In this document: piece after piece, positions 7,486-58,470 of the stretch
How positions within the stretch are numbered: position 1 is the stretch's first letter
Layout of the letters: the number at the start of each line of letters is the position of its first letter
Assembly (NCBI GenBank): GCA_041651055.1
Contig: JBAZJW010000001.1
Coordinates: 242,661 to 306,660 of the forward strand
Length of the DNA stretch: 64,000 bases
Direction: 5' to 3'
Source: Minisyncoccota bacterium
Lineage (GTDB): Bacteria; Patescibacteriota; Minisyncoccia; Phycocordibacterales; UBA5272
Position numbers and translations under genes: made by a program
The notes under the pieces: model-generated
Seen by the model: only the letters and a program-made list of their open reading frames with translations
Databases searched by the model: none
What the model was told of the DNA's origin: nothing

Positions 7486-7653
7486 GGTCTCTTTATCTAT
7501 TGCAGTTCTATCGTTACTATCGTGTCTTTCGTGTCAGCAGTATACCATTTTCCCTCACTCTCTGTTTATAGATTATTTAAGAAAATAAGTCAAGAAAAAA
7601 GCCTCCTTTCGGAGACTTTTTACGATTAACGCTTTGATAAACGGTATAAATAT

Positions 7654-7780
7654 TGAGATGAATGCAAGGCGTGAGAAATTTTTGCGACCAACAAATCTAT
7701 TTTGGTCCAAGACCTGAATTTGCTAATTCAGATGCGTGGAGGAAAAATTTCGAGAAACGCAGCAGTCGCTCAATATTTTA
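7654..7780 (-). repeat. R1 structured repeat, copy B (divergent core) between rpsI and grpE
   Basis: Keeps flanks GAGAAATTTTTGCGACCAA and GCGTGGAGGAAAAATTTC (outer stem GAAATTTTT/AAAAATTTC) but carries a different inner hairpin CTGAATTtgctAATTCAG. Confidence 0.6.
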
Positions 7781-7840
7781 TCGTTTAGACCACCCATTCG
7801 ACTCGCCTAAGGCAGACAAGGCTCGCTCAGGGTGTCGTAA

Positions 7841-7884
7841 GCGATAATAATAAAATCCCCTTTCGGGGATTTTATTATTATCGC
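7841..7884. terminator. perfect 20-bp palindromic hairpin GCGATAATAATAAAATCCCC-TTTC-GGGGATTTTATTATTATCGC overlapping the rpsI stop codon
   Basis: Seen directly; the rpsI stop codon lies inside the 3' arm. Confidence 0.7.
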
Positions 7885-8285
7885 TTACTCCAAGTTGGTG
7901 CCTTTCGAGCTTTCTTAAGCCCGAACTTCTTTCGTTCCACCTGACGTGAATCACGCTTTAGGAATCCAAGTTTCTTAAGGGTATTCTTGATATCTTCATC
8001 ACGAAGAACAAGTGTGCGAGAAATACCATGACGAACAGATTCTGCTTGTGCATGAATACCTCCACCAGAAACGTGTACGGTGATAGTAAATTTTTCCGCA
8101 ACTTCACTCTTTGTGATTGCTTCCTGTGCGATCATTTGAAGTTCTTCTGTTACGAAGTAATCCTTCATTTCTTTATCGTTTACCGTAAACGAAGTCTTTG
8201 TCGCAGGAGTAATGCGAACACGAGCAGTTGCTGTCTTTCTGCGTCCTACGGCTTCAATGTAACGGTTTTTTGTATCTGCTGACAT
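7878..8285 (-). CDS. rpsI: 30S ribosomal protein S9
   Basis: Ends ...KKARKAPTWSKR; S9 signature throughout. Confidence 0.95.
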   Translation of the reverse strand: MSADTKNRYIEAVGRRKTATARVRITPATKTSFTVNDKEMKDYFVTEELQMIAQEAITKSEVAEKFTITVHVSGGGIHAQAESVRHGISRTLVLRDEDIKNTLKKLGFLKRDSRQVERKKFGLKKARKAPTWSKR

Positions 8286-10159: not shown

Positions 10160-10252
10160 ACAGTTATTAATAATTAGTTATTGGTGGAATCAACACAATT
10201 TAATTGCGAATTTTCCGTATTAACTAATAACTAATTACCAATAACTAATTAC
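10160..10252. promoter_or_regulatory. long inverted repeat (TAATTAGTTATTGG ... CCAATAACTAATTA, 14 bp arms) in the rpsD-rpoA intergenic region
   Basis: Arms at 10170-10183 and 10237-10250 with nested extra copies of TAATTAGTTA; would form a large hairpin in the polycistronic mRNA. Confidence 0.45.
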
Positions 10253-10260
10253 TTTATCTT

Positions 10261-10881
10261 TTATCTTGAGTAATACTCGAGAACCTTCTGTGTGTCGAAC
10301 ATTGGCTCAACCTCACGAGGCATACCGACAACTGTCGATGAAAGAGTCTGAGGATTCACGGTAACGATATGACTTGGCGTCATTCCCATTAACTTTTCAG
10401 CTAAACCAAGGAAAACCTTTGCAGACTTACTACCCTCACGGATAGAAATAATGTCTCCAATTTTCACCTGGTGAGATGAAATGTTTATACGACGGCCGTT
10501 TACTAAAATGTGTCCATGAGATACAAGCTGACGTGCGAGCGCACGAGTGTTTGCAAAACCTGAACGATACACCATGTTGTCGAGTCGTGATTCAAGCTCA
10601 CGTGCAAGTTTGAGCGCTGGAGTAACAGATCCGTCCCCAGACTCATGTGACGCAGTCGCACGCTTAACATACATAGAAAACTGCTTTTCCATGAGACCGT
10701 AGGTAATACGCATCTTCTGCTTAGCTTTCAACTGTTCTCCATATTCTGAAGAATTAGAACGGTGCTTACGTTCACTATCGAGCTTTCCAGGAGCATATGG
10801 ACGCTTTTTGAAGGCGCACTTCTCACGGCCACATAGTGACTCCCCTAGACGACGGCAACTTTTACAGGTGATTCTACTCAT
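10261..10881 (-). CDS. rpsD: 30S ribosomal protein S4
   Basis: Start trimmed to MSRITCKSCRRLGESLCGREKCA, the S4 zinc-ribbon-like N-terminus; S4 domain follows. Confidence 0.9.
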   Translation of the reverse strand: MSRITCKSCRRLGESLCGREKCAFKKRPYAPGKLDSERKHRSNSSEYGEQLKAKQKMRITYGLMEKQFSMYVKRATASHESGDGSVTPALKLARELESRLDNMVYRSGFANTRALARQLVSHGHILVNGRRINISSHQVKIGDIISIREGSKSAKVFLGLAEKLMGMTPSHIVTVNPQTLSSTVVGMPREVEPMFDTQKVLEYYSR

Positions 10882-13668: not shown

Positions 13669-14011
13669 AAGAGAGAGGAACGTTCTGTGTCCCCTCTAGT
13701 GTAACACTTACTGGTACTCCGTCTGTATAAAACTGTGCATAAGAACCGCCTTCAAGTGTTTCACCTATCCATGTCGCGTAGCGTGATGCTGTGAGATGAA
13801 AGTTTGTTGGTATGCGATCTTGTAAAGAAATAAATTCGAGCGTATAGAGAACACCATCGAGAAGTTTTGAACCTGCGATAACATTCATACCTTCTGCTTC
13901 GATATGTTTGAATCCTATTGGGTGCGTGTGCGAGACGAGAACCTTTCCGTCGACAACATAATTAACAAGCGTAGCAGAATCTCCGACAGCAATAGAGAGG
14001 TATGGGGTCAT
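13628..14011 (-). CDS. hypothetical protein with a HTHP motif (weak JAB/RadC-like resemblance); 3' end overlaps the next ORF by 40 nt
   Basis: 127-aa ORF; VSHTHPIGF motif only, no full JAMM signature. Confidence 0.45.
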   Translation of the reverse strand: MTPYLSIAVGDSATLVNYVVDGKVLVSHTHPIGFKHIEAEGMNVIAGSKLLDGVLYTLEFISLQDRIPTNFHLTASRYATWIGETLEGGSYAQFYTDGVPVSVTLEGTQNVPLSYARHSQTIHSFKI

Positions 14012-46365: not shown

Positions 46366-46380
46366 GTATTCTATACACAG

Positions 46381-46421
46381 AAAAGGCCGTACACTGTAAT
46401 CTTGCAGAGTACGGCCTTTTC
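46381..46421 (+). terminator. terminator AAAAGGCCGTAC...GTACGGCCTTTTC
   Basis: 8-bp GC stem then a T run. Confidence 0.7.
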
Positions 46422-46455
46422 TTGTATGATTGTATACATCATTTCAATGTTTAGC

Positions 46456-46530
46456 TCCGCGGTAGCTCAGCGGTAGAGCAGCTCGCTGTTAACGAGTTGG
46501 TCGTAGGTTCGATCCCTACCCGCGGAGCCA
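46456..46530 (+). tRNA. tRNA-Asn (anticodon GUU), CCA encoded
   Basis: Hand-folded cloverleaf: acceptor TCCGCGG/CCGCGGA, D arm GCTC-AGCGGTA-GAGC, anticodon arm GCTCG-CTGTTAA-CGAGT, variable loop TGGTC, T arm GTAGG-TTCGATC-CCTAC, discriminator G, CCA. Confidence 0.9.
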
Positions 46531-46537
46531 AGCATTG

Positions 46538-46577
46538 AAAACTAAAATACCCCTTTCATGGGGGTATTTTAGTTTTC
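46538..46577 (+). terminator. perfect hairpin AAAACTAAAATACCCC-TTTCATG-GGGGTATTTTAGTTTT after the tRNA
   Basis: 16-bp arms. Confidence 0.7.
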
Positions 46578-46593
46578 AACAGTTTCCCAGCGG

Positions 46594-46695
46594 GTAGGGA
46601 TCGAACCGAAGGTCCACATTTTTAATGACTGAAAGGAATATAAAAATGTAGGATCCCGACCAACGGGAGGGGCGATCCCTACCCTGAAAAATAAA
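46594..46695. other. structured segment built from inverted and direct partial copies of the tRNA-Asn T-arm/acceptor 3' end
   Basis: CGGGTAGGGATCGAACC (reverse complement of the tRNA 3' half) and GGGGCGATCCCTACCC (direct copy) enclose an inner hairpin CCACATTTTTA...TAAAAATGTAGG. Confidence 0.5.
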
Positions 46696-46748
46696 ACACC
46701 TACCCCACAACCCTTGCATAATAAAAAAAATTATTCTAGTATAAAAAC

Positions 46749-47139
46749 GTGTTCATTGGTATAGCGGATGTCAAAACGGCAGGTCAGAGCATGCGAAAAT
46801 ATTGCTCCAGAGGTCATCCCAGGTGGCAACATTTGAGAGCCTTTGCAGAATGCTTCTTGTGAGGACAAGGAGCCGACACTGTGTGGTTCGACCCCACAAC
46901 CTAACGAAAACTATAGGTTTTGATGCGCACTAATAGGATGGAGACTGCGACGTTGTACTTCCGGGTACGATCGAGTCAACCCTGAGAGACATCCCTTCAA
47001 AACTGATAAAAGCGAAATCTATAGGGTGCTAATTTGGTGGAGGTTCACTCCTTGCCATAAGAGGCCCGATACCTGAGGTCACTAACCCCGAGACCAGAGA
47101 GTAGCTTTAGTCGGTAGTCATCCAAGTACCAATGAACAC
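46749..47139 (+). ncRNA. candidate ~390-nt structured ncRNA of unresolved identity
   Basis: Ends pair over 13 bp (GTGTTCATTGGTA / TACCAATGAACAC). No ORF of 60 aa or more in any frame. Internal T-arm-like GTGTGGTTCGACCCCACA. Followed at once by a terminator. Confidence 0.4.
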
Positions 47140-47147
47140 ACACTTAC

Positions 47148-47176
47148 CAAACCGCCTCCAGCGGTTTTTCTTTTTC
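47148..47176 (+). terminator. terminator AACCGC-CTCCA-GCGGTT + T-rich run
   Basis: Directly follows the 3' strand of the closing helix of the candidate ncRNA. Confidence 0.6.
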
Positions 47177-47234
47177 CCCATATAATAAAGTTACCACCAT
47201 CTACTTACTTAAAAAAGATTACTTCCTTGCACCA

Positions 47235-47252
47235 ATACCCCCTAGGGGGTAT
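47235..47252. promoter_or_regulatory. candidate CsoR operator: perfect 18-bp GC-core palindrome ATACCCCCTAGGGGGTAT overlapping the csoR -10 (TATACT)
   Basis: Palindrome ends 9 nt before the csoR ATG; CsoR-family operators are TACCC-type GC-rich palindromes. Confidence 0.6.
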
Positions 47253-47261
47253 ACTATTTTC

Positions 47262-47525
47262 ATGAACCAAGATATTCCAAAACTCATACGTCGCCTTAAA
47301 ATTATAGAAGGACAAGTTCGTGGCTTACAAGAAATGTTAGAAAAGAAAACATACTGTATCGACGTCATCACACAAACCTCTGCCATCAAACAGGCCCTCT
47401 CCACCATAGAAGACGCCCTCATGGAAGGACACCTCGAGCACTGCGTCGTCGACCAAGCAAAAAAAGGTCAACTAGAAAAAATAAAAAGTGAAGTTCTTAA
47501 AGTGTATCGTCTAAAAAGAAAATAA
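47262..47525 (+). CDS. csoR: CsoR/RcnR-family metal-sensing transcriptional repressor
   Basis: 87 aa; C-x(n)-H-x3-C-type ligand pattern (YCIDV ... HLEHC); four-helix-bundle family size. Confidence 0.8.
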   Translation: MNQDIPKLIRRLKIIEGQVRGLQEMLEKKTYCIDVITQTSAIKQALSTIEDALMEGHLEHCVVDQAKKGQLEKIKSEVLKVYRLKRK

Positions 47526-47526
47526 T

Positions 47527-48732
47527 ATGAGCTGTACATTATGCGCCGAGGGAGGTATCAAAAACTTTAAAGACTTCAATGAATCATGCTTTTGTAGTAC
47601 AAAAGACCAAGAATCTCCCTATGGCAATTTCTCTTCACATTCGGCCGTCTTTCTCTCTCATGCCATTGTAGAAAATATACATGCAAGTATTACTGTTCTA
47701 GAAAAAACAATACGAAGCAGCTATTTTGCAGACTTAGTATCCGCCGAAGGCGATCCTATTTCATCAAATACAAATGGAGGACTACTCATGTCGTACGATT
47801 TTCACCTTGACGAAGAAACGCCAAAGCTTATTGAAATAAATACAAACGCTGGCGGATTTTTCCTTAGCTACGAATTATTGAAGGCTTCAAAAAACTGCTG
47901 TACTCATGCCAAGGCTCAAGATATTGAAACCATGGAAGAAACTATCGTGGCAATGTTTCGAAACGAATTCAAAAAAATAAGCGACAAACCATTAGGAACT
48001 GTCGCAATTGTCGACGAGAATCCAAGTGGACAATTTTTGTATCCAGAATTCCAAATTTGCAAAGACATTTTAGAAAAACATGGAATAACGACATACATCC
48101 TAAGCCCCGAAGAAATCACAGTAGAGCATGAGATGGCATACTATGAAGGAAAAGTCATAGACCTCATCTACAATAGACTCACCGATTTTTATTTCAACGA
48201 AGAAAAGAATGCAAAGTTTATTCCCCTTCTCAGAAATACAAAAACGCTCATCTCACCAAGCCTGGATGACCACAAGCTCTTTGCCGATAAAATTAATTTT
48301 ATACACTTTCAAAACCCCGCCACCTATAAAGACACACTCTCCCTAGATGAGATAACAACCCTTACCACCAGTATCCCTGAAACAAAATTAGTAACCCTTG
48401 AAAATAAAGACACACTGTGGGAAGGCCGAAAAAAATATTTCTTTAAACCTCTAAATAGCTACGGAAGCAAAGGTGCCTATAATGGCAAAGGGTTAACCAA
48501 AAAAGTATGGGAATCTATAATTACGCAACCATACATCGCTCAAGAGATCGTCAAACCAAATACAAAAATAAAAGAAATTGATGGTGCAGAAGAACCTTTC
48601 AAGTTCGACATAAGGGCATATACCTACAATGGAAAAGTATTACTCTTGGGCGCACGAATATACCGAGGGCAAACAACAAATTTCAGAACGGTTGGTGGCG
48701 GATTCGCCCCCATCTTTCTGACAGAGAATTAA
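47527..48732 (+). CDS. glutathionylspermidine-synthase-like ATP-grasp ligase (YgiC/YjfC family) with an N-terminal Cys-rich extension
   Basis: C-terminal KPLNSYGSKGAYNG ... IRAYTYNGKVLLLGARIY...GGGFAPIF resembles the YgiC/YjfC ATP-grasp core; CxxC/CxC pair at the N-terminus; 1-nt gap after csoR. Confidence 0.55.
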   Translation: MSCTLCAEGGIKNFKDFNESCFCSTKDQESPYGNFSSHSAVFLSHAIVENIHASITVLEKTIRSSYFADLVSAEGDPISSNTNGGLLMSYDFHLDEETPKLIEINTNAGGFFLSYELLKASKNCCTHAKAQDIETMEETIVAMFRNEFKKISDKPLGTVAIVDENPSGQFLYPEFQICKDILEKHGITTYILSPEEITVEHEMAYYEGKVIDLIYNRLTDFYFNEEKNAKFIPLLRNTKTLISPSLDDHKLFADKINFIHFQNPATYKDTLSLDEITTLTTSIPETKLVTLENKDTLWEGRKKYFFKPLNSYGSKGAYNGKGLTKKVWESIITQPYIAQEIVKPNTKIKEIDGAEEPFKFDIRAYTYNGKVLLLGARIYRGQTTNFRTVGGGFAPIFLTEN

Positions 48733-48764
48733 TCATTTAGAAAGAAACATACCTAAACACCATT

Positions 48765-49373
48765 ATGGAAACCACAACAAACAAACCAATCTGCGAGCAG
48801 TGCAAAATGGAATCTACACATACAGAAAAAGACGAAGTGGGTGTAGATCGTTTTTTCTGTGATCATCACTCTCTCACCCTTGCAAACAAAAAGAATGTAA
48901 CTACATTTCAAAAACTTGTACCACTTCTTTATGTCTTTGCAGTAATATTCTTCCTTTCTTCTGTTAGACAATTTGCAACGGGAATAAATCCGTTTCTTTT
49001 CATGATGGATTTTATGGGAATATTCTTTATTGTGTTCGGACTTTTTAAACTCGTCGACTTACGTGGGTTCGTTGAAGGATTTAAGAGTTATGACTTTATT
49101 GCCAAGAGATATACAGCATATGGCTATGCGTATCCTTTTATTGAAATCGCTTTAGGGGTTCTCTACATACTCGGTTTTATGTTCGTATGGCAAACACTGC
49201 TCGTACTATTCTTGTCCGCAATGGGAATATACACTGCATATATAGCGATTAAACACGAAGATGAGATACCATGTGTTTGTCTCGGTACACTTTTTGATTT
49301 CCCTATGACATGGGTCACCTTTACGGAAAATACGATTATGTTTCTTATGGCACTTTTTATGATGGTCATGTGA
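48765..49373 (+). CDS. membrane protein with an N-terminal Cys/His metal-binding motif (CEQC...CDHH) and a MauE/DoxX-like 4-TM domain
   Basis: Four hydrophobic helices after a cytoplasmic CxxC...CxHH segment; internal CVCLG. Confidence 0.55.
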   Translation: METTTNKPICEQCKMESTHTEKDEVGVDRFFCDHHSLTLANKKNVTTFQKLVPLLYVFAVIFFLSSVRQFATGINPFLFMMDFMGIFFIVFGLFKLVDLRGFVEGFKSYDFIAKRYTAYGYAYPFIEIALGVLYILGFMFVWQTLLVLFLSAMGIYTAYIAIKHEDEIPCVCLGTLFDFPMTWVTFTENTIMFLMALFMMVM

Positions 49374-49410
49374 TCTTCATAAAAGAAAAAAATTACTCGC
49401 AAAAACTCCT

Positions 49411-49818
49411 ATGAAAAATAATATACTTTTTGTTTCAAGTCTCTTGGCTCTCGCTGTCGGATTACTTATCGGATATTCTGTCTGGGGTACACGTGCCAAT
49501 GAAAACAACGTAATGTCTTCATCAACATTTGGACACAGAATGCCAAACGGACAAATGATGAACACCTACAGCGGAATGGATATGACAACGACAATGAACG
49601 GAATGATGCAGGAATTGCAGGGTAAAAATGGAGACGCTTTTGATCAAGCATTTTTATCACAGATGATCGTGCATCATCAGGGTGCTGTCGTTATGGCAGA
49701 AGCTGTGCTTAAGACATCAAAAAGGCCAGAGCTTCTTAAGCTTGCGAAGGATATTATCACAGCACAAACTAAAGAGATTGAGATGATGCAAGGTTGGGAG
49801 AGGACATGGTTTAAATAG
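49411..49818 (+). CDS. DUF305-family secreted protein with a Met-rich segment (copper-resistance-associated family)
   Basis: Signal/TM anchor; MPNGQMMNTYSGMDMTTTMNGMM Met-rich motif; DUF305 signature FDQAFLSQMIVHHQGAVVMAE. Confidence 0.7.
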   Translation: MKNNILFVSSLLALAVGLLIGYSVWGTRANENNVMSSSTFGHRMPNGQMMNTYSGMDMTTTMNGMMQELQGKNGDAFDQAFLSQMIVHHQGAVVMAEAVLKTSKRPELLKLAKDIITAQTKEIEMMQGWERTWFK

Positions 49819-51315: not shown

Positions 51316-52284
51316 ATGAACACTCGCTCAGCAATCATTACTCTTATAGCAGGCCTCGCATTCATTTCTCTTGGTATATTCTGGTATACCCGTGAACAAG
51401 CATACCTTTCCATAACAACGTTTGATGAGTGTGTTGCTGCGGGCTACCCTATTCTCGAAACCTATCCAGAACAATGTCAGACTCCGGATAAACGCCTCCT
51501 TGTAAACAAGAAGCAGATTCCTTCACAAACCATTTCCACTTCAACTGTCACAGGAAAAGAGAACCTCATATATCTCGACAATCTCTCATCAGGCCAGACA
51601 GTAACCAGTCCCGTTACCATTTCTGGGTCTGCTCGTGGCAACTGGTATTTCGAAGCATCCTTCGGTGTCGAAGTTGTTGATGGAAATGGCACTCGTTTAA
51701 CAATGCAACCAGCACAAGCGAAGTCTGATTGGATGACGGAAAACTTTGTGCCTTTTTCGGTAACACTCACTTTTCCGCAACCCCTCACTGCAACAGGGGC
51801 AATTGTTTTCCATAAAGATAATCCGAGCGGGATACCTTTAAACGATGATGAGCTACGTATTCCGGTGCTTTTCAAGCAAGCAGAACGCACTGTGAAGCTC
51901 TACTATTACAACAGTGCTCTTGATAAAGATTCAAAAGGAAATATTCTCTGCTCTGCGAAAGGTCTTATGCCTGTAACCCGCACTATCAAAGTATCGAAGA
52001 CCCCTCTACAAGATACACTTCGTCTCTTCTTGTTAGGAGACATATCTCAAGAAGAAAAAATAGAAGGTGTTTCGAGTGAATTCCCTCTTTTAGGAGTTTC
52101 ACTCGCTTCCGCCACTATTACAGGAAGTGGTCTCACCACGATTACGTTACTTGACCCAAATAACAAAACAAGCGGAGGGTCCTGCAGAGTAAACATTCTC
52201 CGTGCACAATTAGAAGCAACAGCAAAACAATTCGAAACCGTAAAGAAAATCATTATAGTACCTGAAACTATTTTCCAACCATAA
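51316..52284 (+). CDS. Gmad2 / GerMN-domain lipoprotein-like protein
   Basis: N-terminal TM helix, Ig-like middle, GerMN-like C-terminus (LYYYNSALDKD...). Confidence 0.55.
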   Translation: MNTRSAIITLIAGLAFISLGIFWYTREQAYLSITTFDECVAAGYPILETYPEQCQTPDKRLLVNKKQIPSQTISTSTVTGKENLIYLDNLSSGQTVTSPVTISGSARGNWYFEASFGVEVVDGNGTRLTMQPAQAKSDWMTENFVPFSVTLTFPQPLTATGAIVFHKDNPSGIPLNDDELRIPVLFKQAERTVKLYYYNSALDKDSKGNILCSAKGLMPVTRTIKVSKTPLQDTLRLFLLGDISQEEKIEGVSSEFPLLGVSLASATITGSGLTTITLLDPNNKTSGGSCRVNILRAQLEATAKQFETVKKIIIVPETIFQP

Positions 52285-52307
52285 ACAATACCACTATTGA
52301 AAAAAAG

Positions 52308-52333
52308 AAAAAGAGCGCTTAAGCGCTCTTTTT
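52308..52333. terminator. bidirectional terminator AAAAAGAGCGCTTAAGCGCTCTTTTT
   Basis: Perfect palindrome between the convergent 51316 and 52353 genes. Confidence 0.8.
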
Positions 52334-52352
52334 CTTTATGAATGATTTTCTC

Positions 52353-52541
52353 TTAACGAGGCCAAACCATTTTAACTGCGGCAAGACCTACAAGAACATA
52401 AACTACCGCTTCTAGTGTTGGCACTGAACCGAGAATCATGTTGACGACATTCCAATTACCGCCCGCAAGCATTCCTAAACCGACAAGACCCCAGTTCACC
52501 CCACCTACTATTACCAAGACACGCGTGACTTGTGAAAGCAT
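52353..52541 (-). CDS. DUF378-family small membrane protein
   Basis: 62 aa, two TM helices, GGVNWGLVGL signature. Confidence 0.7.
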   Translation of the reverse strand: MLSQVTRVLVIVGGVNWGLVGLGMLAGGNWNVVNMILGSVPTLEAVVYVLVGLAAVKMVWPR

Positions 52542-57226: not shown

Positions 57227-57316
57227 GCAGATAAGTAAGCAACTCCACGTTTCTACGGTTTCTACACTTGTAGGTATGTGCTCAGGGCTTATGGTTAATA
57301 ATTAGTTTCTACATAA

Positions 57317-57598
57317 ATGAATTCAAAACTATACATTGGTGGTATTCCTTACACTTCTACTAACGAAGATCTAAAAGCTCACTTCAGTGGCGCTGGAACA
57401 GTTGTTTCAGCTCAGATCATCATCGACAAGATGACTAACCGTTCAAAGGGCTTCGGCTTTGTTGAAATGTCATCTGACGCAGAAGCTGAGAAGGCTATTG
57501 CTATGTTCCACGATCAAGAGTTCCAGGGTCGTCGTCTAACGGTAAACGTTGCACGTCCACTCGCTCCTCGCGAAGATCGTCCACGTCGCGCATTCTAA
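57317..57598 (+). CDS. RRM-domain RNA-binding protein
   Basis: RNP-2 (KLYIGGIPY) and RNP-1 (KGFGFVEM) motifs, Arg-rich C-tail. Confidence 0.9.
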   Translation: MNSKLYIGGIPYTSTNEDLKAHFSGAGTVVSAQIIIDKMTNRSKGFGFVEMSSDAEAEKAIAMFHDQEFQGRRLTVNVARPLAPREDRPRRAF

Positions 57599-57615
57599 TT
57601 TCGATTAGAATCACG

Positions 57616-57649
57616 AAAACAAAATCGCCCGAAAGGGCGATTTTGTTTT
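57616..57649. terminator. terminator AAAACAAAATCGCCC-GAAA-GGGCGATTTTGTTTT
   Basis: 15-bp stem, bidirectional. Confidence 0.8.
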
Positions 57650-57663
57650 GTGCGCTCAACCTC

Positions 57664-58470
57664 CTATTTTTTTTCACAGACAAGAAAGTACTCCTGATTC
57701 CCGTCCCCTCCTTGAATATGACACAGGAAAATCTGCACGGACGTCATTCCTTTTTCTTTCGCCAATATTTTGTAGTCATCGAGTATACCATTGACTAATT
57801 GCTCATCTTTCACAATTCCTTTCTTGGTATTCCCTTTTCCGACTTCAAACTGTGGCTTAATAAGTAAAAAATACAAAGCCCCCTTTGCGCCAAACCTCAC
57901 GATATCATCAAAGACATGTGTAAGAGGAATGAACGAAAGGTCGGCGACAATTATTTCATACGGTGTACTATTTTTGAAATTACGAATATCTGTATTCTCA
58001 AATACTGACACACGTGCATCATTTCTTATTTTCTCGTGCAACTGAAGTGTTCCCACATCAACAGCATCCACATGTGACACACCGTATGAGAGCAAGCAAT
58101 CTGTAAACCCTCCCGTAGAAGACCCTACATCAAGAGCAGTCTTCCCTTCCAACATTTCTCGTATTTTGCCTTCGTTTTTATTATCTAGATTTTCTGAATT
58201 TGCATTCTCATTAAATATTGAATGTTCATTTATTGAATATTTCTTTTCGGCATCCTTGATGTCAAAAAGCACTCCCTCCAACTTCTCCCCTCCTCTTGAA
58301 ACAAATTTCCTTCGCGCAGTAACCTCAATCACATCAATCTCAGCAACTTGTTTTGTCTGCTTTGTAGCAATAGAACCATTCACAAGGACGTTCCCGCTTT
58401 CAATAATTCCTTGTGCTTCAGTTCTACTTTCGCAAAGCCCCCTCTTTACCAACTCTTGATCTAATCGCAT
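57664..58470 (-). CDS. tlyA: TlyA-family rRNA 2'-O-methyltransferase (S4 domain plus FtsJ fold) carrying an in-frame insertion from an R2 repeat
   Basis: S4-like N-terminus, SRGGEKL, LDVGSSTGGFT. Between KLEGV and LDVG there is a ~25-aa insert (KKYSINEHSIFNENANSENLDNKNEG) encoded by the R2 repeat at 58211-58249. Confidence 0.8.
   Translation of the reverse strand: MRLDQELVKRGLCESRTEAQGIIESGNVLVNGSIATKQTKQVAEIDVIEVTARRKFVSRGGEKLEGVLFDIKDAEKKYSINEHSIFNENANSENLDNKNEGKIREMLEGKTALDVGSSTGGFTDCLLSYGVSHVDAVDVGTLQLHEKIRNDARVSVFENTDIRNFKNSTPYEIIVADLSFIPLTHVFDDIVRFGAKGALYFLLIKPQFEVGKGNTKKGIVKDEQLVNGILDDYKILAKEKGMTSVQIFLCHIQGGDGNQEYFLVCEKK
58211..58249. repeat. R2 AT-rich repeat copy inside the tlyA coding sequence
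   Basis: TTAAATATTGAATGTTCATTTATTGAATATTTCTTTTCG is about 36/39 identical to 59271-59309. Confidence 0.65.

What the first reader, a model, noticed from the sequence alone, without database searches (positions are those of the whole stretch)
46749..47176. ~390-nt ORF-free structured RNA candidate with a 13-bp closing helix and its own terminator
Between the tRNA region and csoR there is no ORF of 60 aa or more on either strand for about 700 nt. The ends of a 391-nt segment pair perfectly over 13 bp (GTGTTCATTGGTA ... TACCAATGAACAC) and a hairpin+T-run terminator follows immediately. Inside are a tRNA-like T-arm (GTGTGG-TTCGACC-CCACA) followed by AACGAAAACTAT...TAATAG. This loosely resembles a tmRNA tag-reading-frame region with a double stop, but lacks canonical tmRNA termini. 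I could not place RNase P CR-I or CR-V motifs. A stable, transcribed ncRNA is the simplest explanation; it may be a divergent tmRNA or RNase P RNA, or a novel large ncRNA.
Basis: seen in the sequence. Interest (0 to 1): 0.6.

Follow-up and report, generated by a model that had tools for sequence, protein, structure and literature searches.

The report
Orphan 391-nt candidate structured RNA gene
A 391-base stretch with no gene, next to a tRNA in a tiny uncultured bacterium (Paceibacterota), looks like a self-contained gene for a folded RNA of no known type, but it occurs only in this one strain, so this cannot yet be proven.

Summary
The described features are real. There is an 896-nt ORF-free gap. 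A 391-nt segment (46749-47139) has ends that pair perfectly over 13 bp (14 with a G-U). A plus-strand hairpin with a T-run terminator follows it, and it contains a tRNA-like T-arm.

It is not a tmRNA, RNase P RNA, intron or any other Rfam family, and it shows no trace of a decayed protein gene.

Several intrinsic signals favour a plus-strand structured RNA:
- It sits in the longest and most GC-rich intergenic region of the window.
- A promoter-like TTGCAT-17-TAGTAT would start transcription at the first base of the closing helix.
- The terminator serves no ORF.
- The T-arm has a chance expectation of about 7e-4.
- GNRA and UNCG tetraloops appear only on the plus strand.

The weaknesses are serious:
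- No homolog was found anywhere except the same strain, so no covariation test is possible.
- Relatives lack it at the syntenic tRNA-Asn locus, which is a variable hot spot.
- A 13-bp inverted repeat is expected about 0.9 times per 64 kb by chance.
- The interior folds only slightly better than shuffled sequence (z = -1.5).

Best reading, at about 50%: an accessory, strain-specific, stand-alone structured ncRNA. The main rival is a non-functional, terminal-repeat-bounded mobile remnant.

Separately, a conserved family of tRNA-mimicking units lies next to the tRNA.

The parts
46714..46742 (+). Promoter-like site TTGCAT (46714-46719), 17-nt spacer, TAGTAT (46737-46742). It would place +1 at about G46749, the first base of the closing helix.
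   Evidence: Read from the sequence. It is too weak for the scan tool's criteria (3/6 in the -35 hexamer, 4/6 in the -10; one search does not list it). It resembles the csoR promoter TTGCAC-17-TATACT, read from the sequence 90 nt downstream. Transcription is inferred, not shown.
46749..47139 (+). 391-nt body of the candidate RNA.
   Evidence: No ORF of 60 aa or more. GC is 0.483, against 0.22-0.42 for the other intergenic regions of the window. MFE is -127.8 kcal/mol with 8 hairpins of at least 4 bp.
46749..46762 (+). 5' strand of the closing helix, GUGUUCAUUGGUAU.
   Evidence: Pairs with 47126-47139: 13 perfect pairs plus one U-G. (pair probability 0.99).
47126..47139 (+). 3' strand of the closing helix, GUACCAAUGAACAC.
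46820..46835 (+). Hairpin CAGGUG-GCAA-CAUUUG with a GNRA tetraloop.
   Evidence: pair probability 0.98; for the rarity of special tetraloops.
46852..46873 (+). 9-bp hairpin GCUUCUUGU-GAGG-ACAAGGAGC.
   Evidence: pair probability 0.98.
46882..46898 (+). tRNA-like T-arm: 5-bp stem UGUGG/CCACA and 7-nt loop UUCGACC.
   Evidence: Only three such hairpins occur in the window. One is the real tRNA-Asn T-arm. 0.22 are expected by chance.
46953..46970 (+). Hairpin UUGUACU-UCCG-GGUACGA with a UNCG tetraloop.
   Evidence: (pair probability 0.88).
47149..47176 (+). Intrinsic terminator: 7-bp stem AAACCGC/GCGGUUU, loop CUCCA, then UUCUUUUUCC.
   Evidence: The orientation is + only. No + strand ORF lies between it and the tRNA-Asn terminator.
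46456..46530 (+). Context: tRNA-Asn(GUU) with its own terminator hairpin (46535-46579).
46584..46686 (+). Context: a tRNA-Asn-derived structured unit lying between the tRNA and the candidate. Its closing stem is GGGUAGGGAUCG/CGAUCCCUACCC.
   Evidence: It is conserved in L017 with a compensatory change. It is related to the family modelled.

Best explanation
The segment is most likely a stand-alone gene for a roughly 390-400-nt structured non-coding RNA on the + strand. It is accessory and strain-specific rather than housekeeping.

Proposed mechanism:
- A sigma-70-type promoter (TTGCAT-17-TAGTAT) starts transcription at about G46749.
- The intrinsic terminator at 47149-47176 ends it.
- The first and last 14 nt anneal into a closing helix that seals both ends, as in other stable bacterial RNAs.
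- The interior folds into about eight hairpins. They are capped by a GNRA loop, a UNCG loop and a tRNA-like T-loop. Such modules typically nucleate tertiary contacts or are read by tRNA-binding proteins.
- The RNA would act in trans, as a scaffold or decoy. It probably arrived with the variable DNA that accumulates downstream of tRNA-Asn in this lineage.

Shown: the sequence features, the composition, and the absence of coding or known-family signal. Inferred: transcription, the fold, and any function.
For: - The intergenic region 46366-47261 is the longest (896 nt) and most GC-rich (0.449; candidate 0.483) in the window. The others are 121-330 nt (one window-edge stretch aside) with GC 0.22-0.42. 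The candidate's GC is in the top 4% of all 391-nt windows.
- A + strand terminator lies 9 nt after the closing helix and has no ORF to terminate.
- The promoter-like site puts +1 on the first helix base.
- The T-arm-like hairpin has a chance expectation of about 7e-4 for this segment.
- Two special tetraloops occur in the + strand fold: 0 of 300 shuffles and 1.1% of genomic windows reach two, and the - strand has none.
- Folding z-scores: -2.75 with helix and terminator; interior -1.51 on + against +0.07 on -.
- No protein signal in any of the six frames: 5.8 billion proteins at E<=1, Pfam, and PHROGs, where the only match is one weak hit at E=0.2.
Against: - No homolog was found in about 1.4 Mb from relatives (97 loci), including syntenic tRNA-Asn loci.
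- None in JGI metagenomes, tested with 12 degenerate patterns. These scans did not recover the source contig either.
- None in IMG/VR or in phage and plasmid records.
- Only identical copies from the same strain exist, so no covariation test is possible.
- Close relatives lack it at this locus, so it is not essential.
- The 13-bp helix is expected about 0.9 times per window by chance.
- The GC-corrected folding energy is only at the 6th percentile of genomic windows.
- The -35 hexamer is weak.
- There is no expression data.
Confidence: 0.5

Rival explanations
1. It is a non-functional DNA-level element: a small non-autonomous, MITE-like element bounded by terminal inverted repeats, or a leftover of an integration event at the tRNA-Asn hot spot. 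The 'closing helix' would then be its 13-bp terminal inverted repeat, and any transcription would be incidental.
For: - The region downstream of tRNA-Asn is variable among relatives that keep def-fmt-PPIase-HPF-DUF975-tRNA-Asn synteny.
- It holds copies of the tRNA 3' end in both orientations.
- In relatives it holds arrays of short repeat-bounded units.
- The candidate is absent from relatives.
- Read without its outermost base on each side, the element begins TG and ends CA, as many DDE-transposon ends do (my own knowledge, not tested).
- A 13-bp inverted repeat is not rare by chance.
Against: - No target-site duplication beyond a possible 2-nt AC.
- No second copy and no parent element with these ends in the window.
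- No copy in any public collection searched.
- No transposase or integrase remnant in six frames.
- This reading does not explain the T-arm, the strand-specific special tetraloops, the high GC, or the exact bracketing by a promoter-like site and a terminator.
Confidence: 0.28
2. It is a long 5' leader, a cis-regulatory RNA or attenuator, of the downstream csoR copper-resistance operon, with the terminator at 47149-47176 acting as the regulated switch.
For: The order promoter, structured RNA, terminator, then operon on the same strand is the classical attenuation layout.
Against: - Homologous csoR/ATP-grasp/MauE/DUF305 operons in nine other loci (L003-L011) have short upstream regions and no trace of this RNA.
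- csoR appears to have its own promoter, with what looks like a CsoR operator palindrome in the spacer (TTGCAC-17-TATACT around ATACCCCCTAGGGGGTAT, 47226-47258; read).
- No convincing antiterminator alternative was seen.
- No riboswitch model matches.
Confidence: 0.07
3. It is a highly divergent tmRNA or RNase P RNA.
For: It has a T-arm-like hairpin and 5'/3' end pairing, both features of those RNAs. The sequence AACGAAAACUAU recalls the E. coli tag region (from memory).
Against: - No match to any tmRNA, RNase P or other Rfam model at E<=10.
- ARAGORN finds nothing until thresholds are cut to 60%, where the hits are nonsense.
- The T-arm is about 240 nt from the 3' end.
- There is no NCCA end.
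- The candidate tag frames are atypical.
- Housekeeping RNAs would have recognisable homologs in relatives, and none was found.
Confidence: 0.02
4. It is a decayed protein-coding gene, or it encodes one or more small proteins.
For: One frame is open for 61 codons (46751-46933) and another for 50 codons. GC content is similar to that of coding DNA.
Against: - Six-frame pseudo-protein search: nothing at E<=1 among 5.8 billion proteins.
- Nothing in Pfam, and one weak PHROG hit at E=0.2.
- tblastn against the relatives' loci hit only the tRNA-linked unit, not the candidate.
- No gene was called here in the public assemblies.
- No Shine-Dalgarno sequence precedes the small ORFs.
Confidence: 0.05

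Closest known systems
Large bacterial structured ncRNAs of unknown or recently found function, often next to tRNAs or on mobile DNA (GOLLD, ROOL, OLE, raiA)
   Same: It is a stand-alone gene several hundred nt long, GC-rich relative to an AT-rich genome, multi-hairpin, and located next to a tRNA gene in variable DNA. That GOLLD and ROOL are often found near tRNAs or in prophages is from my own knowledge.
   Different: No sequence or structure match to any of these Rfam families. Those families are defined by many covarying homologs. This one is a singleton.
tmRNA (SsrA)
   Same: It has a T-arm-like hairpin, paired 5' and 3' ends, and a length of about 360-400 nt.
   Different: It has no tRNA-like acceptor end with CCA. 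The T-arm is not next to the 3' strand. There is no plausible tag frame. No ARAGORN or Rfam hit.
Bacterial RNase P RNA (types A and B)
   Same: Similar length, a closing P1-like helix formed by the two ends, and use of T-loop-like motifs.
   Different: No covariance-model match at E<=10. No GGAAAGUCC-type CR-I motif in the sequence. No homolog in relatives.
MITEs and Correia-like small repeat-bounded elements
   Same: About 400 bp, non-coding, perfect 13-bp terminal inverted repeat, sited in a recombination hot spot.
   Different: No target duplication, no further copies, and no parent IS was found. It carries RNA-type motifs on one strand only.
tRNA-linked mimic units of this same clade
   Same: Same neighbourhood, just after the tRNA terminator. 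Same outline of a 12-14-bp closing helix followed by a terminator.
   Different: In those units the closing helix copies the acceptor and T stems of the upstream tRNA, and a CUGC-loop hairpin is conserved. The candidate's helix is unrelated to tRNA-Asn, and R1 does not hit it.

Membership tests
tmRNA | Recognised by tmRNA covariance models (standard, alpha, beta, cyano, mitochondrial) or by ARAGORN. | tested here: not met
   (no hit at E<=10). (no gene at default or 80% thresholds; only nonsense at 60%).
tmRNA | tRNA-like domain: a 7-bp acceptor stem from the two ends, a T-arm directly before the 3' strand, and a discriminator plus CCA. | tested here: not met
   The ends pair over 13-14 bp and are followed by ACACUU. 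The T-arm (46882-46898) lies about 240 nt from the 3' end.
tmRNA | Tag reading frame ending in a hydrophobic, Ala-rich C-terminus. | tested here: not met
   The frames read ...NENYRF* or ...TKTIGFDAH**.
RNase P RNA | Match to the RNaseP_bact_a, RNaseP_bact_b or other RNase P covariance models, which encode the conserved P4 core (CR-I/CR-V). | tested here: not met
RNase P RNA | A universal housekeeping gene with recognisable homologs in related genomes. | tested here: inconclusive
   No homolog of this sequence in about 1.4 Mb from relatives (97 loci). Those loci are only partial genomes.
Group I / group II intron | Match to the intron covariance models, and location inside a host gene. | tested here: not met
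   It lies between genes.
MITE / small IS-derived element | Terminal inverted repeats. | tested here: met
   13-bp perfect inverted repeat at the ends.
MITE / small IS-derived element | Target-site duplication flanking the repeats. | tested here: not met
   The flanks ...AAAAAC and ACACTT... share at most AC.
MITE / small IS-derived element | Multiple copies in the genome, or a parent element with the same ends. | tested here: inconclusive
   None in the 64-kb window or in public collections. The rest of the 559-775-kb genome could not be read.
Riboswitch / attenuator leader of the csoR operon | Conserved association with homologous downstream operons. | tested here: not met
   Nine loci carrying homologous csoR operons (L003-L011) lack it.
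   No R1 hit in the window. The helix GUGUUCAUUGGUA is unrelated to the tRNA-Asn 3' end.
Stand-alone structured ncRNA gene (generic) | Own promoter and own intrinsic terminator on one strand, with no ORF. | tested here: met
   The promoter match is weak.
Stand-alone structured ncRNA gene (generic) | Compensatory base changes among homologs. | not testable with these tools
   No homologs were found.
Stand-alone structured ncRNA gene (generic) | A detectable discrete transcript. | not testable with these tools
   No expression data are available.

The most novel reading that the evidence does not exclude
The segment is the founding member of a new class of roughly 390-nt structured RNA in CPR (Paceibacterota) bacteria. 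It would be carried on mobile DNA that targets the tRNA-Asn locus, and would use a tRNA-like T-loop module to interact with tRNA-handling machinery, or to build a compact fold with its own activity.
Probability: 0.2. Interest if true: 0.6.

Novelty: new member of a known kind. Interest (0 to 1): 0.3.

Why it matters
CPR bacteria have tiny genomes with very little non-coding DNA, and their RNA repertoire is poorly charted. A 390-nt accessory structured RNA unlike any known family would be a useful lead. This would be all the more so if it is linked to the tRNA-Asn recombination hot spot and the tRNA-mimicking units found beside it. As a singleton it currently has no comparative support, so on its own it is a modest lead, not a discovery.

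Tried and rejected
- **Rfam:** at gathering thresholds on the whole window, and at E<=10 on 1.1 kb and on 441 nt. Only tRNA-Asn and noise.
- **ARAGORN:** at default and lowered thresholds. No tmRNA.
- **Synteny through the downstream csoR operon:** the operon is a mobile cassette with different upstream DNA elsewhere.
- **Synteny through upstream fmt:** 80 GTDB loci plus closer metagenome contigs. tRNA-Asn synteny is kept but the candidate is absent.
- **nhmmer, blastn (word size 7) and six-frame tblastn against all loci:** only self, plus the tRNA-linked unit in L017.
- **blastn against phage and plasmid records:** nothing.
- **Pseudo-protein trick:** frames of the RNA translated so that related-loci scans with degenerate codon patterns. 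Twelve patterns in JGI metagenomes and in IMG/VR gave nothing.
- **Six-frame pseudo-protein against 5.8 billion proteins, Pfam and PHROGs:** nothing apart from one weak PHROG hit at E=0.2.
- **Exact-protein look-ups for strain variants:** only the same strain.
- **T-arm as a tRNA fragment or att core:** the 17-mer hits only coding DNA in IMG/VR.
- **Closing-helix sequence as a tRNA 3' end:** no matching tRNA in the loci.
- **Far-end direct repeat of the tRNA 3' end, to delimit an island:** none.
- **TCTAGTATAAA as a recurrent promoter motif:** not recurrent.
- **Literature searches:** nothing relevant.

Full report
**Observation.** The window comes from a Candidatus Paceibacterota (CPR) metagenome-assembled genome; the contig is 559-775 kb.
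- Between a DUF975 membrane-protein gene (ends 46365) and csoR (starts 47262) there is no ORF of 60 aa or more.
- The gap contains tRNA-Asn(GUU) at 46456-46530.
- The 13-nt arms 46749-46761 and 47127-47139 are perfectly complementary. They extend to 14 pairs with pair probability 0.99.
- A terminator-like hairpin with a T-run follows at 47149-47176 on the + strand.
- The T-arm UGUGG-UUCGACC-CCACA is at 46882-46898.

The description is therefore accurate.

**Is it more than chance?** Several measures are weak.
- A perfect 13-bp inverted repeat within 500 nt is expected 0.9 times per 64 kb, so the helix alone proves nothing.
- The segment with helix and terminator folds at z = -2.75 against shuffles.
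- The interior alone gives only z = -1.51 on the + strand and +0.07 on the - strand.
- After regressing on GC, its energy is at the 6th percentile of all 391-nt windows.

Other signals are stronger.
- The intergenic region is the longest (896 nt) and most GC-rich (0.449; candidate 0.483) of the window. The others have GC 0.22-0.42. This is the classic signature of structured RNA genes in AT-rich genomes.
- A T-arm-like hairpin (5-bp stem, G-C closing pair, UUCRANN loop) is expected 0.22 times per 64 kb on both strands, which is about 7e-4 for this segment. Of the other two in the window, one is the true tRNA-Asn T-arm and one lies in coding sequence.
- The + strand fold has 8 hairpins, including one GNRA (GCAA) and one UNCG (UCCG) tetraloop. 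None of 300 dinucleotide shuffles and 1.1% of genomic windows reach two special tetraloops. The - strand has none.
- The + strand terminator has no ORF to serve.
- A promoter-like TTGCAT-17-TAGTAT resembles the neighbouring csoR promoter. It would start transcription on the first base of the helix. The -35 hexamer is weak, and the scan tool did not list the site.

**What it is not.**
- Rfam gives nothing but the tRNA at gathering thresholds, and only noise at E<=10, even on the isolated 441 nt. This rules out tmRNA, RNase P RNA, 6S, SRP RNA, introns, riboswitches and the known large ncRNAs.
- ARAGORN finds no tmRNA.
- The tmRNA idea also fails on anatomy. The T-arm is mid-molecule, there is no CCA end, and the tag frames read NENYRF* or TKTIGFDAH**.
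- It is not a decayed gene as far as can be tested. A six-frame pseudo-protein found nothing at E<=1 among 5.8 billion proteins and nothing meaningful in Pfam or PHROGs.

**Conservation.** No homolog was found anywhere except in the same strain.
- The downstream csoR/ATP-grasp/MauE/DUF305 operon is a mobile cassette with different upstream DNA in other genomes, none carrying the RNA.
- The upstream block def-fmt-PPIase-HPF-DUF975-tRNA-Asn is syntenic in many relatives with 66-80% fmt identity. The DNA after tRNA-Asn differs in each, and nhmmer and blastn find no homolog in about 1.4 Mb (97 loci).
- Phage and plasmid records gave nothing.
- JGI metagenomes gave nothing with 12 degenerate patterns, although these scans did not recover the source contig either.
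- IMG/VR gave nothing.
- Only identical copies from the same strain exist in ENA and Logan.

The RNA is therefore an orphan, and covariation cannot be tested.

**Context.** The tRNA-Asn 3' flank is a hot spot.
- The window has an inverted 18-22-nt copy and a direct 12-nt copy of the tRNA 3' end. Together they form a roughly 100-nt structured unit at 46584-46686.
- That unit is conserved in L017 with a compensatory change.
- Relatives carry related units, including a four-unit tandem array in L095.
- A three-sequence alignment folds into a three-way junction with 11 of 41 pairs changed on both sides.
- A covariance model finds further members, including one after tRNA-Gln whose closing stem copies tRNA-Gln instead.
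- The 391-nt candidate is not a member of this family.

**Interpretation.**
- Best explanation, about 50%: a stand-alone, accessory, + strand structured ncRNA. Its 5' and 3' ends pair, and its interior uses T-loop, GNRA and UNCG modules. It probably arrived with the variable DNA at this hot spot. Transcription, fold and function are inferred.
- Main rival, about 28%: a non-functional repeat-bounded mobile remnant. The hot-spot context and the absence from relatives favour it. It lacks a target duplication, further copies, or any transposase trace, and it does not explain the strand-specific RNA motifs.
- Minor rivals: a leader of the csoR operon (about 7%), a decayed or small-protein gene (about 5%), and a divergent tmRNA or RNase P RNA (about 2%).

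**Verdict.** This is a real and reasonably well-formed candidate ncRNA gene of no known family, but a singleton without comparative or expression support. Interest is modest. Expression data and whole-genome profile searches in Patescibacteria are the decisive next steps.

Noticed in passing
window 46584-46686; L017 ~10205-10320; L015 13102-13216; L018 13307-13431; L019 16046-16160(-); L021 ~13786-13980; L095 7343-8270 (four tandem units); L006 6847-7001; L034 13272-13361; L012 13004-13157(-): A family of structured units lies directly after the terminator of a tRNA gene. The closing stem copies the acceptor stem and T stem of that tRNA, plus the discriminator and CCA where encoded. The D and anticodon arms are replaced by a hairpin with a conserved CUGC loop. 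The T loop is replaced by a long arm (GGGGUCGCGAAA...UUUGUGACC). Among three sequences, 11 of 41 pairs change on both sides. Model R1 finds further members. The member after tRNA-Gln is retargeted to tRNA-Gln's stems. No Rfam match.
   Followed up: partly
tRNAs in the loci: Among 32 tRNAs with enough downstream sequence, an exact 11-mer test for downstream copies of the tRNA 3' end flagged 7 of 17 tRNA-Asn, 1 of 3 tRNA-Gln and 0 of 12 others. The test misses known members L015 and L021, and three of the Asn hits show only a direct copy. Asn and Gln are the two tRNAs served by the GatCAB transamidation pathway and share U1-A72 (own knowledge). The sample is small, and the Asn loci are homologous rather than independent.
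   Followed up: partly
window 46506-46607: The last 18 nt of tRNA-Asn, its 19-bp terminator hairpin, and an inverted copy of those 18 nt form one roughly 100-nt extended palindrome. The Logan assembly of the same strain breaks exactly here into two contigs.
   Followed up: partly
window 47226-47258 and 47262-49818; L003-L011: csoR appears to have its own promoter, TTGCAC-17-TATACT, with the palindrome ATACCCCCTAGGGGGTAT (a likely CsoR operator) in the spacer. The csoR / circularly permuted ATP-grasp / MauE / DUF305 block recurs as a cassette in unrelated contexts, often next to copper ATPases or RND pumps.
   Followed up: partly
window 46702-46712 and 46891-46901: An 11-nt direct repeat, ACCCCACAACC. 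One copy sits just before the promoter-like -35 hexamer. The other forms the 3' side of the T-arm. Chance expectation within the 0.9-kb intergenic region is about 0.1 (rough hand estimate). Unexplained.
   Followed up: no
L034 13150-13220: The 3' half of a tRNA-Asn (from the anticodon-loop region onward) is followed by a mimic unit. ARAGORN calls no tRNA, and the 5' half looks different, so the gene may be disrupted or intron-containing.
   Followed up: no
L016 19523-19642 (-): A LOOT RNA (RF03000) match above gathering score lies 3.6 kb from tRNA-Asn in a relative.
   Followed up: no
window ~7567-7960, ~51993-52380 and ~57230-57900 (+): Other 391-nt windows stand out in the genome-wide controls. 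Windows starting at 7567 and 51993 have unusually low GC-corrected folding energy. Windows starting at 57231-57522 have 2-3 special tetraloops. A long perfect hairpin lies near 7837-7890.
   Followed up: no
L095 6339-6803 and L092 13978-14568: These are ORF-free stretches upstream of tRNA-Asn in close relatives. GC is 0.46 against 0.36 for the locus in L095, but only 0.376 against 0.351 in L092. The two share a conserved GC-rich hairpin, GACACCCACCGGAGGCGGGGCYCGGGTGGGTGG. They are not homologous to the candidate.
   Followed up: no
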